This document shows positions 34,542 to 50,055 of a stretch of DNA of 64,000 nucleotides, piece after piece. The notes under the pieces were generated by a model. That model worked only from the letters and a program-made list of their open reading frames with translations, was not told the DNA's origin and did not search any database. The translations under genes were made by a program, and so were the position numbers. Numbering within the stretch: position 1 is the first letter of the stretch; every line of letters begins with the position of its first letter. This DNA comes from a virus (taxonomy: Duplodnaviria; Heunggongvirae; Uroviricota; Caudoviricetes), in the IMG/VR virus record IMGVR_UViG_3300040781_000350; one strand, 5' to 3'.

Positions 34542-35216
34542 ATGGAATATATTACCATTATTTGCAAAAATTGCGAACAAGAACATCGATACCCTAAACG
34601 TCATTATATTCAAAGACAGAAAACAGGAAGACCGCATAAGATATATTGTTCAAGACATTGTGCTGATATCGGTAAATCGGTCAAATACGAAAAAAGACAT
34701 TGTGTTGTATGTAAAGATGAATTTAATTGTAAATCAAATTTAAAAACAAAATGTTGTAGTCGTAAATGTGCTGATAATTTACATAATCCTAAAAAGAAAT
34801 GTGGCAAATGTAAAAAACCTGATTGTAATAATATTACCAGTAATCATCGAAAAGTATTATGTGATATATGTATTGGTGAAGGTAGATCATATTATAAAGC
34901 ATATAATTACATGTTACCAGATGAGCTTCCTCTTTATAAAGTTATAAAACAAAGAGGTTCAAATAAATTTGATGTAGTTAGATCATGGGCTCGTAAAAAA
35001 ATGATCAACAGTGGTGTAGAATTAAAATGCGATGTTTGTGATTATGATATTCATGTTGAAGCAGCACATATTAAACCTTTAAGTACATTTTCACCAGATA
35101 CACTCATTTCAGAAGTTAACTCATTTGATAACTTAAGATTGATGTGCCGTAATCATCATTGGGAGCTTGACCATGGGGTATTAAAAGAAAAAATTTCATC
35201 GCCGCGAAGCTCTTAG
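34542..35216 (+). mobile_element. HNH homing endonuclease with multiple zinc ribbons
   Basis: YCSRHC, CCSRKC repeats; EAAHIKP...NLRLMCRNHH. Confidence 0.85.
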
Positions 35217-35289
35217 TAGAGCAGTTGGATTTATATCCCAATGTCTAGATAAGAAACAGGAAGGGGAGCGTAACCCCTCGCGGCGACCA
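35200..35289 (+). tRNA. tRNA-Ile(UAU)-like, degenerate T-loop
   Basis: CGCCGCG/CGCGGCG acceptor, loop TTTATAT, ACCA; overlaps the HNH stop. Confidence 0.5.
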
Positions 35290-44600: not shown

Positions 44601-44686
44601 AGAGAGTAAACTTGCCAGGGTGCAGGGACTGTTTGCTAAACAGATCGGGCGTTAATTCGTCTACGGTTCAAGTCCGTTGCTCTCTG
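44601..44686 (+). tRNA. trnS: tRNA-Ser(GCU)
   Basis: CTGT-TTGCTAA-ACAG, long V-arm, G73. Confidence 0.85.
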
Positions 44687-44701
44687 CGGAATTTCAAAAC
44701 A

Positions 44702-44717
44702 GGAACACATTTATAAT
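44702..44717 (+). promoter_or_regulatory. GGAAC-class promoter of the suppressor tRNA/pth2 unit
   Basis: GGAAC ACATT TATAAT. Confidence 0.7.
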
Positions 44718-44729
44718 AAGGTATGAAAC

Positions 44730-44806
44730 GCATTAATAGTTCAGTTGGCAGAACGGGCGCCTCTAAAACGCTGTCGTCGCGGGTTCGAGTCCCGCTTAAT
44801 GCACCA
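44730..44806 (+). tRNA. amber suppressor tRNA (CUA)
   Basis: perfect 7-bp acceptor, D-arm GTTC/GAAC, loop CTCTAAA, T-arm, A73, CCA. Confidence 0.88.
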
Positions 44807-44949
44807 TTTTTGACAGGTAAGCCGGTGATGAAACATTATCTTCAACTTAAAAATGAAGATGGTACACCAAACGGTAAATATTTGGTAATATCTGATAACG
44901 TTTATCAGAAGATACTTGAAGCAGTAACATAAAATAATAAATAAATACA

Positions 44950-45312
44950 ATGACATAGAAAAATATATACGCAGTGGTTCGACATGACCTTAATATGTCC
45001 GCAGGTAAGATCGCTTCTCAAGCAGGTCATGCCTATTTAGATTCATATCTAAAAAATCCTGATACAGAGTATCTAAACAATCCAACTAAGATTTGCCTAG
45101 GAGCAAATGAAACAGAGTTGGAGAAAGTATGCCATAAATGTGAGATGCTTGACATCCCGCATTCCAAAATTATTGATCCAGACTTTACAATTGCTGGAAA
45201 CAACGTAATTCGCAACGAGAACAACCAAGAACCAGCATTTACTGCAGTAGGCATCGGTCCTATTGCTAAGCAAGATGTAAAACGAGTTCTTAGCAACCTC
45301 AAACTACTTTAA
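44950..45312 (+). CDS. pth2: peptidyl-tRNA hydrolase type 2, with in-frame TAG at codon 3
   Basis: VVRHDLNMSAGKIASQAGHA and TAVGIGP motifs; ATG ACA TAG AAA AAT ATA TAC GCA GTG is in frame with the tracked GTG 44974. Confidence 0.85.
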
Positions 45313-45313
45313 T

Positions 45314-45346
45314 ATGACATAGAATAATAGATACAAACCTCCATAA
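45314..45346 (+). CDS. mini-ORF M-T-amber-N-N-R-Y-K-P-P-ochre
   Basis: ATG ACA TAG AAT AAT AGA TAC AAA CCT CCA TAA, starting 1 nt after the pth2 stop. Confidence 0.55.
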
Positions 45347-45406
45347 TCGTTAATTGTCTTGGAAACTAAACAAAAACAATACAATTAAAAAACAAAAGGA
45401 AACAAA

Positions 45407-45736
45407 ATGATTAACGAAAATATGAAAGAAACAGTCGAAAGACTAACAAACGATAACGCACTCGACTTTGGAAGCAAAGAAGAGTATCTAACCTGGAGAA
45501 AGAATTGGAAAGAACGATTTAATCGAACTTCTCAAATTATTCGAAAGTTGAAGAATGATCGCAAGGTCGTTCACTTCGATCCAAATATCAAACTAACAAA
45601 GGAAGATGAGGCTTATATCAAAGACCACATCACAACTTATAGCTGGGATCGAATTGAATCTGCACAAGCAAAAGTCAGACATATGATTTGTGAGCTTATT
45701 GCAGCACGAGAAATCTATAAAAAGAAAATTGCTTAA
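45407..45736 (+). CDS. hypothetical protein
   Basis: 109 aa, EYLTWRKNWKERF motif. Confidence 0.7.
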   Translation: MINENMKETVERLTNDNALDFGSKEEYLTWRKNWKERFNRTSQIIRKLKNDRKVVHFDPNIKLTKEDEAYIKDHITTYSWDRIESAQAKVRHMICELIAAREIYKKKIA

Positions 45737-45739
45737 GAT

Positions 45740-45773
45740 AAAGGGGCTGTAGTCAATCTGCAGCCCCTTTCCT
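45740..45773 (+). terminator. rho-independent terminator
   Basis: AAAGGGGCTGTAG-TCAAT-CTGCAGCCCCTTT. Confidence 0.8.
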
Positions 45774-45800
45774 TTACAGGAACAATGTTATAATACGAAT

Positions 45801-49218: not shown

Positions 49219-50055
49219 GTTTAATAGATGGCGGTTTGGCGTCACTAGATAAAGCATCGTAAGGTGTTGAAAGCATATAGGTCTTAATATATGCGCTATG
49301 CAAATAGTCATCCATTCATTCCAAAGTTCTCATTGGCGAAAGTTGATGAGCATCAGTCCATTCTGGTGTGAAAGAACATATTGAGGGTTATAAGTGTACC
49401 TAGGCCAACGGTGAAGGTATACGGAAATTAGTAGTTTCCTGTGACCATACTAACTCAGTACTTCCTTAGAATAAATACTAACTCAGTACTTCCTTAGAAT
49501 AAACGGTAGATATCGTGTCAGAGTTTAGCAGACGATGGCTGATTATCATTACAAACGGGCGAGAGTTCGTGAAGTAGCCTCCAAACTTCCGCTAGAAGAG
49601 GAGATCGGAGCGTGTTGTATTTCGTAGTTCAAAAGACCGCGAAGCGACAGGACATGCACGCTCTATAAGACACAAAGAATATAGATCAATGGTAGATCAA
49701 TTGTATATAGAACAATATGTTGAAGGTTCAAGTCCTCCTTTTCATTAACACGAAAAAGCAAAAGCCATGTCCTTACGTTGTAGAAAATAGTCTAATACTA
49801 TACACGAAAGTGAATATAGTGCTTGTGAACTCGCAAGGGGATCAAGTTTAGCGATACAAGTAATCAAGTTTTGAGAGTAAGCTCCTCACTTCTGATGAAA
49901 ATATGCTGAGTATATAACGTACCATAGTAGAAATGCTACTACTTTAAAAAAGCGACTATTGTAACATACTATTTAAAAAGTAGTGGATAAGTTTTTAACC
50001 GATATAGGGTACGGAAACGAAAGTGTTACTGAAAAAGGTATAATCTCAGCCTCGG
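49200..50055 (+). ncRNA. large ornate ncRNA, GOLLD-like candidate, with embedded degenerate tRNA (~49674-49745)
   Basis: ~850 nt ORF-free region dense in GNRA-capped hairpins, between a strong promoter and a terminator next to the tRNA array. Confidence 0.6.
49447..49502 (+). repeat. perfect 28-nt tandem duplication
   Basis: ATACTAACTCAGTACTTCCTTAGAATAA x2. Confidence 0.95.

What the first reader, a model, noticed from the sequence alone, without database searches (positions are those of the whole stretch)
44702..45312. Amber-gated peptidyl-tRNA hydrolase next to its own amber suppressor tRNA
Seen: a GGAAC-class promoter (44702) drives an intact tRNA with CUA anticodon (44730-44806). About 140 nt later pth2 begins ATG ACA TAG AAA AAT ATA TAC GCA GTG GTT CGA, with the TAG in frame. 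Known: Pth2 proteins start with a KxxxVVRxDL beta-strand, which the tracked GTG start would truncate. Two-codon minigenes (lambda bar) cause peptidyl-tRNA drop-off that Pth must clear. Inference: full-length Pth2 is made only when the phage suppressor is active or termination is impaired. Otherwise the mRNA acts as a minigene. This would be a translational switch for ribosome rescue in a standard-code phage.
Basis: partly seen in the sequence, partly recalled or inferred. Interest (0 to 1): 0.9.

Follow-up and report, generated by a model that had tools for sequence, protein, structure and literature searches.

The report
Stop-codon-gated phage Pth2 operon
A 221-kb marine phage that otherwise uses the normal genetic code keeps a UAG stop as the third codon of its peptidyl-tRNA hydrolase gene and of a tiny leader gene just behind it, next to its own UAG-reading tRNA. 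The same layout in about 80 related phage sequences indicates that these genes are made only when that tRNA reads through the stop.

Summary
tRNA-CUA lies at 44730-44806 behind a GGAAC-N5-TATAAT promoter. pth2 reads ATG(44950) ACA TAG(44956) and continues in frame into a PF01981 Pth2 body.

The TAG is not damage. In 76 of 79 non-duplicate relatives (30-79% identity) the first in-frame stop before the conserved YAVVR strand is TAG. It is usually preceded by ACR (Thr) and always followed by a purine. The codons after it evolve as coding sequence and mostly hold no start codon. A matching suppressor tRNA lies just upstream in 45 of 62 loci with enough DNA.

The stop co-varies with the anticodon: two TAA with tRNA-UUA in L003, and TGA with tRNA-UCA in cultured Agrobacterium phage Atu_ph07. 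The genome itself uses the standard code.

New for this window: the second ATG-ACA-TAG copy (45314-45346) is a conserved leader, M-T-amber-..-Y-K-P-P-stop. The bases after its stop pair with the start region of the next gene, X (45407-45736), which is conserved beside pth2.

Best reading: an operon whose output depends on amber suppression. Nothing is experimental. The inserted residue and the purpose are unknown. This scan has noted the same module on other DNA (at least 171 genomes). I found no published description.

The parts
44702..44717 (+). Promoter of the unit: GGAAC (44702-06), 5 nt, TATAAT (44712-17). The transcript probably starts near 44723, about 6 nt before the tRNA.
   Evidence: It is one of 62 GGAAC-N3-7-TAnAAT elements in the genome, mostly 6 nt before an ATG. 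It forms a repeat with the copy at 45776-45795.
44730..44806 (+). Amber suppressor tRNA: anticodon CUA, loop CU-CUA-AA, short variable arm, discriminator A, encoded CCA. It is an elongator type (G1-C72, no three G-C pairs in the anticodon stem).
   Evidence: ARAGORN and Rfam tRNA at 56.2 bits. It is homologous to 47 other unique suppressor tRNAs found beside pth2 relatives.
44828..44932 (+). Small ORF of 34 aa between the tRNA and pth2. Its status is uncertain and the closest relatives lack it.
   Evidence: ORF list. No Pfam or PHROG match. L001 has only 56 nt between the tRNA and the TAG.
44950..45312 (+). pth2 with an in-frame amber: ATG 44950, ACA, TAG 44956-58, then KNIYAVVRHDLNMSAGK... 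to TAA 45310-12. The protein has 120 aa if the TAG is read.
   Evidence: Alignment to solved Pth2 2zv3 from its residue 4. Conservation of the stop in relatives.
45314..45346 (+). Amber-containing leader ORF: ATG ACA TAG AAT AAT AGA TAC AAA CCT CCA TAA, that is M-T-amber-N-N-R-Y-K-P-P-stop. It starts 1 nt after the pth2 stop.
   Evidence: The same ORF is found, in frame, only directly after pth2 in L001, L002, L090 and L029/L030. Lengths differ by whole codons and the K-P-P codons carry synonymous changes. There is none elsewhere in the genome. L111 and L104 carry it without pth2.
45347..45417 (+). RBS-sequestering helix. The 5' arm (45347-61) begins at the first base after the leader stop. 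The 3' arm (45403-17) covers the start codon and codons 2-4 of gene X.
   Evidence: Inverted repeat I1. The helix appears in the MFE fold. Duplex energy is -12.5 kcal/mol, matched by 4 of 2000 shuffles. Equivalent helices occur in 4 other loci, two of them on other sequences.
45407..45736 (+). Gene X: 109 aa, helical, function unknown, with the motif F..K.EYL.WR..WK..Y..LS..IR. It is the conserved downstream partner of pth2.
   Evidence: tblastn finds it right after pth2 in most loci. Alignment A2. No Pfam family. AlphaFold model at pLDDT 85 with four helices. No fold match.
45740..45775 (+). Terminator-like hairpin (GGGGCTGTAG / CTGCAGCCCC) followed by TTTCCTTT. It probably ends the unit, since the next GGAAC-TATAAT promoter starts at 45779.
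   Evidence: Inverted repeat I3, 13 nt arms at 92% complementarity. Sequence read. The consensus scan did not call it.

Best explanation
The stretch 44702-45775 is one small operon whose protein output depends on read-through of UAG by the operon's own suppressor tRNA.

Shown from sequence and comparison:
- The promoter at 44702 precedes tRNA-CUA.
- pth2 opens with AUG-ACA-UAG in frame with the enzyme body.
- A second AUG-ACA-UAG ORF follows 1 nt after the pth2 stop and ends Lys-Pro-Pro-UAA.
- The bases right after that stop pair with the start region of gene X.

Inferred course of events:
1. Ribosomes start at AUG 44950 and decode Thr.
2. At the UAG they are either released by RF1 (or drop off) or accept the charged tRNA-CUA.
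3. Only in the second case do they make full-length Pth2 with its first beta-strand.
4. Ribosomes finishing pth2 restart on the leader, where the UAG must be read again.
5. A ribosome then reaches the Pro-Pro-stop, a slow-termination context. There it covers 45347-61 and frees the start codon of X.

Pth2 would therefore scale with suppression efficiency, and X roughly with its square. Placing the stop two codons after the start, followed by a purine, probably favours the tRNA over RF1. That would let a weak suppressor open these genes while leaving ordinary TAG stops mostly intact.

Most likely purpose (inference, about 35%): a feed-forward or dosage link. It would tie Pth2 and X to the activity of the suppressor, or to weakened RF1 termination, in order to deal with or limit the consequences of read-through.
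For: Conservation of the stop:
- Of 79 non-duplicate loci, 76 have TAG as the first in-frame stop before the YAVVR strand. The codon before it is ACG in 39 and ACA in 27, never ACC or ACT.
- The base after the stop is a purine in 77 of 77 loci.

Translation through the stop:
- In 35 loci with 8 codons after the stop, third positions vary (1.1-1.9 bits) while first and second positions of the V, D, L, R and L codons stay fixed, as in the enzyme body.
- Most loci have no ATG, GTG or TTG between the stop and the Tyr codon.
- The nearest upstream ATG is in frame in 48 loci and out of frame in 7.
- In the five closest loci the TAG-to-Tyr distance is 3, 4, 4, 4 and 5 codons, always in frame.

Link to the tRNA:
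- A matching suppressor tRNA lies on the same strand within 700 nt upstream in 45 of 62 loci with at least 300 nt of upstream DNA.
- L003 has two in-frame TAA codons and a tRNA-UUA.
- Atu_ph07 has SD-ATG, five codons, then TGA, and its only suppressor tRNA is UCA (PMC6102473).

Start of translation:
- Relatives place TTGACA-N16/17-TATAAT-N6/7 directly before the ATG, with no SD. This implies a leaderless mRNA starting at the AUG.

Genetic code:
- 248 high-scoring ORFs cover 79% of the genome. TAG ends 43 of them, with no coding signal beyond it.
- A scan for ATG, then 1-8 codons, then TAG, then an ORF finds only pth2 as a convincing case.

Leader and helix.

Fold: the residues YAVVRHDL align to residues 4 onward of solved Pth2 2zv3.
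Against: - There is no experiment. It is unknown whether the tRNA is made and charged, and with what. A nearest-neighbour comparison gave no amino-acid identity.
- The window's tRNA has a C31.A39 mismatch.
- In this window pth2 has no recognisable promoter of its own and no SD. A 34-codon ORF is inserted between the tRNA and pth2, so how the AUG at 44950 is reached is unclear.
- L001 and L089 have an ATG after the TAG, so they could make the enzyme without suppression.
- The window has ATA and GTG after the TAG.
- Three loci (L065, L069, L058) have the TAG 8-17 nt after the tRNA with no ATG.
- TAG ends 17% of the phage's own high-confidence genes, so a strong suppressor would be costly.
Confidence: 0.75

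Rival explanations
1. Suppression-independent start. AUG-ACA-UAG is only a regulatory upstream mini-ORF, or part of a promoter or start-site signal. Pth2 is initiated after the stop, at ATA 44965 or GTG 44974 here, or by re-initiation after the two-codon ORF. The tRNA-CUA is a neighbour for other reasons.
For: - L001 and L089 carry an ATG 4 and 1 codons after the TAG.
- The window has in-frame ATA and GTG.
- L065, L069 and L058 have no ATG before the TAG.
- No SD precedes ATG 44950.
Against: - Most relatives have no ATG, GTG or TTG between the stop and the Tyr codon, yet those codons evolve as coding sequence.
- L002 and L090 have none before the Tyr codon either, and L002 has none before the internal Met.
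- The upstream ATG is in frame in 48 of 55 cases.
- The stop type follows the tRNA anticodon in all three stop classes.
Confidence: 0.13
2. RF1 gauge rather than tRNA gauge. The tRNA is made constitutively, and the variable that the early UAGs sense is host RF1 activity, in the way prfB senses RF2. The operon would then turn on when termination at UAG weakens during infection.
For: - The design has early UAGs in a translation-factor-like gene.
- L055 carries CTT TAG C, with the enzyme body in the +1 frame, which is the prfB-type site.
- No RF-1 domain is encoded by the phage.
From my own knowledge, uL11 is needed for efficient RF1 action.
Against: - This is a variant of the main reading, not an alternative to read-through by the tRNA.
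- Nothing in the sequence shows that RF1 changes during infection.
- The L055 and L033 frameshift reading rests on two loci only.
Confidence: 0.07
3. Genome-wide reassignment of TAG (code 15), a pseudogene or assembly error, or the 21-nt direct repeats being scars of a mobile pth2 cassette.
For: - A suppressor tRNA is present.
- A 19/21 direct repeat brackets pth2.
Against: - TAG ends 43 of 248 confident genes, with no coding signal after it.
- The stop is conserved in 76 of 79 loci down to 30% identity.
- Both repeat copies are the first seven codons of conserved amber ORFs. The downstream copy keeps its reading frame through whole-codon length changes.
Confidence: 0.03

Closest known systems
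Stop-codon recoding in phages that carry suppressor tRNAs (TAG read as Gln, code 15, in crAss-like, Lak and other gut phages; bioRxiv 10.1101/2021.08.26.457843; PMC10879173)
   Same: A phage-encoded tRNA-CUA decodes in-frame TAG in phage genes inside a host that uses the standard code. The suggested role is control of expression.
   Different: Here only two short ORFs in 221 kb carry an in-frame TAG. TAG remains an ordinary stop for 17% of the genes. The targets are a Pth2 gene and a leader peptide beside the tRNA, not late structural and lysis genes.
prfB (RF2) autoregulation through an early in-frame UGA and a +1 frameshift
   Same: A stop codon placed early in a gene of the translation apparatus makes its synthesis depend on how that stop is decoded.
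   Different: The window's TAG is in frame and is passed by a dedicated tRNA, not by frameshifting. The product is not the release factor. Only L055 and L033 look frameshift-like.
Leader-peptide translational attenuation and arrest peptides (ermCL/ermC, cat and cmlA leaders, tnaC, SecM; RAPP-type ApdA, ApdP, ApcA; Pro-Pro-stop slow termination). Cited from my own knowledge and earlier notes of this scan.
   Same: A short ORF whose ribosome, paused at its end, covers the 5' arm of a helix that hides the next gene's start site. It has a Pro-Pro-stop ending.
   Different: The ribosome reaches the pause site only if it first reads a UAG at codon 3. The signal sensed is therefore stop-codon read-through, not a drug, an amino acid or secretion.
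Lambda bar minigenes (AUG AUA stop) and Pth. Cited from my own knowledge.
   Same: A two-codon ORF, AUG-NNN-stop, with a functional tie to peptidyl-tRNA hydrolase.
   Different: Here the mini-ORF is in frame with, and is the start of, the pth2 gene itself. Many relatives have 4-codon or two-amber versions. No toxicity or drop-off has been shown.
Synthetic suppressor-tRNA feed-forward loop for leak-free expression in E. coli (PMC7969014)
   Same: One input drives both a suppressor tRNA and an mRNA with early amber codons, so output needs both.
   Different: That circuit was engineered. This one is natural, conserved, and tied to specific genes.
Archaeal and eukaryotic peptidyl-tRNA hydrolase 2 (PF01981; PDB 2zv3, 1rzw, 1q7s)
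   Same: The fold family matches, as do the N-terminal strand, the GK..Q..HA motif and the conserved Asp.
   Different: This phage clade has a 10-residue insert after the conserved Asp. Activity is untested. Cultured-phage Pth2 genes of other clades (phiM12, Myrna, phiCbK) have no early stop.

Membership tests
Pth2 (PF01981) | Match to the family profile above the curated cut-off | tested here: met
   63.9 bits from the GTG start and 67.4 bits for the read-through protein, against a cut-off of 23.
Pth2 (PF01981) | N-terminal beta-strand (..VVR.DL..) followed by GK..AQ..HA | tested here: met
   YAVVRHDLNMSAGKIASQAGHA aligns to 2zv3 residues 4 onward. The strand is complete only if translation starts upstream of GTG 44974.
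Pth2 (PF01981) | Conserved catalytic-site residues (Lys of GK, Asp of the D..T motif) | tested here: met
   K17 is nearly invariant and D73 is invariant in alignment A1. Both align to the solved enzymes.
Pth2 (PF01981) | Hydrolysis of peptidyl-tRNA | not testable with these tools
   This needs an enzyme assay.
Elongator nonsense-suppressor tRNA | Cloverleaf with a 7-nt anticodon loop, U33, anticodon CUA and a purine at position 37 | tested here: met
   ARAGORN and Rfam at 56.2 bits. The loop is CU-CUA-AA. There is one C31.A39 mismatch.
Elongator nonsense-suppressor tRNA | Not an initiator (no 1:72 mismatch, no three G-C pairs in the anticodon stem) | tested here: met
   G1-C72 is paired. The anticodon stem is G.U, G-C, C-G, G-C, C.A.
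Elongator nonsense-suppressor tRNA | Expressed, aminoacylated, and inserting a residue at UAG | not testable with these tools
   The nearest-neighbour comparison with 130 other tRNAs gave no clear identity.
Code-15 (TAG-recoded) phage | In-frame TAG in many genes, with TAG rarely used as a stop | tested here: not met
   TAG ends 43 of 248 confident ORFs, with no coding signal beyond it. Only pth2 and the leader carry an early TAG.
Leader-peptide translational attenuator | A short translated ORF upstream of the regulated gene, conserved as a peptide | tested here: met
   M-T-amber-x2-4-(Y/H/F)-K-P-P-stop is kept in frame in the window, L001, L002, L090, L029, L111 and L104, with synonymous changes in the K, P and P codons.
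Leader-peptide translational attenuator | A helix hiding the next gene's SD or start codon, with its 5' arm within reach of a ribosome at the leader's end | tested here: met
   The arm starts 0-3 nt after the stop. Energies are -11.2 to -15.4 kcal/mol. Between 0 and 4 of 2000 shuffles match this in six loci; L104 is weaker at 115 of 2000. The pairing is kept on different sequences and with different next genes.
Leader-peptide translational attenuator | Ribosome pausing at the arrest motif | not testable with these tools
   Pro-Pro-stop is a known slow-termination context (my own knowledge). Testing it needs toeprinting.
Lambda bar-type minigene | A two-codon ORF whose expression causes peptidyl-tRNA drop-off and depends on Pth | tested here: inconclusive
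   The two-codon form AUG-ACR-UAG occurs in about 35 loci. Others have MKET-amber, MNET-amber or two ambers. Drop-off cannot be tested here.
prfB-type programmed +1 frameshift | A slippery CUU before the stop, with the enzyme body in the +1 frame | tested here: not met
   In the window the TAG is in frame with the body. Only L055 (CTT TAG C) and L033 have the body in the +1 frame.

The most novel reading that the evidence does not exclude
The suppressor tRNAs of large standard-code phages may be regulators rather than decoders. Together with early stop codons in a leaderless pth2 gene and in an arrest-type leader, the tRNA would form a self-contained circuit. The circuit would measure the balance between read-through and RF1 termination at UAG (or UAA or UGA in variants) and set the dose of Pth2 and its unknown partner X accordingly. 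In this phage it might work together with the neighbouring RNA mimic of the uL11 site, which could weaken RF1.
Probability: 0.35. Interest if true: 0.9.

Novelty: new variant of a known kind. Interest (0 to 1): 0.8.

Why it matters
Papers on jumbo phages report suppressor tRNAs whose targets were not identified. The XacN1 authors looked and found none (PMC5852040). The Atu_ph07 authors named no specific target (PMC6102473). This locus and its relatives supply a specific, conserved target.

They also point to a natural gene switch built from a stop codon and a dedicated tRNA. So far this logic is known mainly from synthetic biology (PMC7969014).

The module links three topics: ribosome rescue and tRNA recycling (Pth2), termination control, and leader-peptide attenuation. 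Atu_ph07 carries the opal version and is cultured, so the idea can be tested directly at the bench.

Practically, gene callers start this Pth2 at an internal Met (cluster P0001, 105 aa) and so miss its true N-terminus.

Tried and rejected
- Genome-wide promoter: I asked whether ATGACATAGAA is a genome-wide promoter or repeat. It is not, with only the two copies around pth2.
- Recoding: genome-wide TAG recoding was rejected.
- Mobile cassette: the direct repeats as cassette scars were rejected, because both copies are starts of conserved amber ORFs.
- Initiator tRNA: the idea that the tRNA starts translation at UAG was rejected on tRNA features and on the in-frame ATGs.
- tRNA identity: a nearest-neighbour comparison was inconclusive.
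- Gene X: there was no Pfam or PHROG family, no atlas lead and no PDB fold match.
- Near-identical assemblies: the look-up for P0001 returned nothing. The contigs of P0006 and P0007 had no DNA available.
- Cultured phages without the early stop: phiM12, the gp680-type Pth2 of Atu_ph07, Myrna and phiCbK.
- Atu_ph07's gene after its Pth2-like gene is not an X homologue.
- The uL11-site RNA was not found in the short relatives' loci.
- The consensus terminator scan did not call the hairpin after X.
- Five literature searches found no natural description of this arrangement.

Full report
WHAT IS THERE

The window is bases 93421-157420 of a single 221,292-bp phage contig with 35.5% G+C. Earlier notes of this scan call it an uncultured marine T4-like phage. 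ARAGORN finds 39 tRNA genes and a tmRNA gene in the window. One of them, at 44730-44806, has anticodon CUA, and Rfam confirms it as a tRNA at 56.2 bits.

It is preceded by GGAAC (44702-06), 5 nt, then TATAAT (44712-17). This is a real repeated signal. The genome holds 62 such elements, most of them ending 6 nt before an ATG.

The pth2 frame reads ATG(44950) ACA TAG(44956) AAA AAT ATA TAC GCA GTG(44974) and runs on to TAA at 45310-12. Pfam PF01981 matches well: 63.9 bits from the GTG and 67.4 bits for the read-through protein.

IS THE TAG MEANINGFUL?

I collected 90 loci that encode relatives of this Pth2, at 30-79% identity. Of these, 79 are non-duplicate. Findings on the stop itself:
- The first in-frame stop upstream of the conserved (L)YA(V/I)VR strand is TAG in 76, TGA in 2 and TAA in 1.
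- The codon before the stop is ACG in 39 and ACA in 27. It is Thr but never ACC or ACT.
- The codon after it is GTT in 40 and GTA in 16, neither of which is a start codon.
- The base after the stop is a purine in 77 of 77.

Evidence that the codons after the stop are translated:
- In the 35 loci with eight codons between the stop and the Tyr codon, variation shows the coding pattern. Third positions carry 1.1-1.9 bits. First and second positions of the V, D, L, R and L codons carry 0-0.4 bits. This is just as in the enzyme body.
- Most loci have no ATG, GTG or TTG in that stretch.
- The nearest ATG within 24 nt upstream of the stop is in frame in 48 loci and out of frame in 7.
- In the five closest loci (window, L001, L002, L089, L090) the TAG-to-Tyr distance is 3, 4, 4, 4 and 5 codons. 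Every length change is a whole number of codons.

The residues after the stop are strand beta1 of the fold. YAVVRHDLNMSAGK aligns to residues 4 onward of solved Pth2 2zv3. Gene callers start the protein at the internal Met (cluster P0001, 105 aa). That start would delete this strand (Pfam profile from position 13).

LINK TO THE tRNA

A suppressor tRNA whose anticodon matches the stop lies on the same strand within 700 nt upstream in 45 of the 62 loci with at least 300 nt of upstream DNA. Typically it ends 42-48 nt before the TAG. The 48 unique suppressor tRNAs form one homologous elongator family.

The stop type follows the anticodon in all three classes:
- TAG goes with CUA in the majority.
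- L003 (the same contig as L018) has GTG AAA TTC ACG TAA, then 20 codons later TTC ACG TAA. That is two ochre codons, and its tRNA has anticodon UUA.
- The cultured Agrobacterium phage Atu_ph07 has a second Pth2-like gene that is annotated only from its internal Met. Its real layout is SD, ATG, five codons, TGA, then 33 open codons with no canonical start. Its only suppressor tRNA has anticodon UCA, as its authors reported (PMC6102473) and as ARAGORN confirms at 430713-430784.

HOW TRANSLATION STARTS

In the GC-rich relatives the tRNA is followed by TTGACA/G, 16-17 nt, TATAAT, 6-7 nt, then ATG ACR TAG, with no Shine-Dalgarno sequence. This is a consensus promoter placed so that the transcript begins at the AUG, which means a leaderless mRNA. 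L001 and L002 have the same layout.

The window is less clear. It has an extra 34-codon ORF between the tRNA and pth2. Only weak promoter-like matches lie before 44950. pth2 is therefore probably read from the transcript started at 44702 or near 44810. How the AUG at 44950 is reached is not established.

STANDARD CODE

In the genome, 248 high-scoring ORFs of at least 100 aa cover 79% of the sequence. They end in TAA (163), TAG (43) or TGA (42). The in-frame coding score after TAG stops is the same as after TAA and TGA.

A scan for ATG, then 1-8 codons, then a stop, then a long coding ORF gives 10 TAG cases against 21 TAA and 19 TGA. Only pth2 is convincing. TAG is thus an ordinary stop here, and read-through is gene-specific.

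THE SECOND COPY

The 21 nt at 44950-70 recur at 45314-34 with 19 of 21 matches. The second copy is an ORF of its own: ATG ACA TAG AAT AAT AGA TAC AAA CCT CCA TAA, that is M-T-amber-N-N-R-Y-K-P-P-stop. It starts 1 nt after the pth2 stop.

The same ORF follows pth2 in these loci:
- L001: MT*IIHKPP*
- L002: MT*ITVYKPP*
- L090: MT*KRYKPP*
- L029/L030: MT*KKYKPP*, with CCA CCG in place of CCT CCA

It occurs nowhere else in the 221-kb genome or in the other loci, on either strand. A pattern scan of IMG/VR found it also in L111 (MT*KFKPP*) and L104 (MT*IFKPP*). Both carry a tRNA-CUA and have no pth2 nearby.

In every case the bases directly after the leader's stop are complementary to the start region of the next gene:
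- Start codon and codons 2-4 in the window (45347-61 with 45403-17), L001 and L090, where G.U pairs absorb a synonymous change.
- The Shine-Dalgarno sequence in L002, L029 and L111, where the sequences and the next genes differ.

The helices appear in the minimum-energy folds. Duplex energies run from -11.2 to -15.4 kcal/mol, and between 0 and 4 of 2000 shuffled arms match them. L104 is weaker, at 115 of 2000.

This is the anatomy of leader-peptide attenuation. The difference is that the ribosome can reach the Pro-Pro-stop only after reading a UAG.

GENE X

The gene after the leader (45407-45736, 109 aa) is found right after pth2 in most relatives. In the GC-rich ones it often overlaps or abuts the pth2 stop, which suggests translational coupling. 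It has no Pfam or PHROG family. Its model is four helices at pLDDT 85, with no fold match.

The conserved unit is therefore suppressor tRNA, amber-gated pth2, then X. A hairpin followed by a T-rich tail (45740-75) and the next GGAAC promoter at 45779 bound the unit in the window.

MECHANISM AND ODDS

Best reading (0.75): an amber-suppression-dependent operon, as set out under Best explanation.

What is shown:
- the anatomy;
- the conservation;
- the coding signal beyond the stop;
- the stop/anticodon matches;
- the standard code;
- the conserved helix.

What is inferred:
- that the tRNA is charged and competes with RF1;
- that Pro-Pro-stop pauses the ribosome;
- that X is off without read-through;
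- the purpose of the arrangement.

Main rival (0.13): initiation after the stop. It is supported by the ATG after the TAG in L001 and L089, by ATA and GTG in the window, and by three loci with no upstream ATG.

NOVELTY

Five full-text searches found no natural description. The XacN1 paper states that the targets of its two tRNA-CUA could not be found. The Atu_ph07 paper names no specific target for its tRNA-UCA. A synthetic circuit with the same logic exists (PMC7969014).

This scan has already noted the amber-Pth2/tRNA-CUA pairing in at least 171 other genomes, and amber leaders ending in Pro-Pro in several. It is thus recurrent within the scan, though apparently unpublished.

- the whole-codon frame conservation;
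- the leaderless promoter layout in relatives;
- the double ochre case and the opal case in a cultured phage;
- the leader-plus-helix evidence for X;
- the conserved partner gene X.

Noticed in passing
window 44601-44687 (+): A sub-threshold tRNA-Ser(GCU)-like gene of 87 nt, with an 8-bp acceptor stem, a long variable arm and a 4-bp T stem. ARAGORN finds it only at lowered thresholds and Rfam misses it. It is 80% identical to a stretch of Arthrobacter phage Atuin. The default scan finds no tRNA-Ser or tRNA-Glu in this phage.
   Followed up: partly
L055 about 180-330 and L033 about 2360-2520: Two relatives have SD-ATG .. CAG TAG GTY CTN TAG, with the Pth2 body in the +1 frame. L055 reads CTT TAG C, the same slippery pattern as the prfB CUU UGA C site, and L033 has TAG CCC CCT. 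This is a possible UAG-dependent +1 frameshift variant of the gate.
   Followed up: partly
L003 2369-2500 (same contig as L018): An ochre version of the module: two in-frame TAA codons, each after TTC ACG, in the pth2 leader, with a tRNA of anticodon UUA 111 nt upstream.
   Followed up: yes
L093 (Atu_ph07, MF403008.1 198552-199000) and L100 (430713-430784): An opal version in a cultured phage. The Pth2-like gene is annotated from an internal Met but has SD-ATG, five codons and TGA upstream in frame. The phage's single suppressor tRNA is UCA and lies 230 kb away.
   Followed up: yes
L065, L069, L058 (tRNA 3' end to TAG): In three loci the TAG lies only 8-17 nt after the tRNA-CUA, and no ATG lies between. 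L065 has two tRNA-CUA in tandem. How translation would start there is unexplained.
   Followed up: no
L006, L015, L019, L020, L037, L048, L061, L070, L077, L078: Many relatives carry two ambers in the pth2 leader, of the form M..T-amber-V ... P-F-T-amber-V/D. This would make output depend on the square of read-through.
   Followed up: partly
From my own knowledge, uL11 is needed for efficient RF1 action at UAG, so a functional link to amber read-through is conceivable. It was not found in the short loci of relatives.
   Followed up: partly
whole genome G000, e.g. window 44702, 45779, 50103: There are 62 copies of GGAAC-N3-7-TAnAAT. Most sit 6 nt before an ATG (implying leaderless mRNAs) and 49 are on the minus strand.
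   Followed up: partly
L111 (minus strand, about 2598 in reverse-complement coordinates) and L104: Amber leaders MT*KFKPP* and MT*IFKPP* with a tRNA-CUA in the locus but no pth2 within reach. They precede unknown genes of about 100 aa. L111 has TATAAT-N7-ATG and a perfect 10-bp anti-SD helix.
   Followed up: partly
window 49674-49747 and 35200-35289: ARAGORN calls a tRNA with anticodon AUA (labelled Tyr) and one with UAU (Ile). Both anticodons are unusual, and neither was examined.
   Followed up: no
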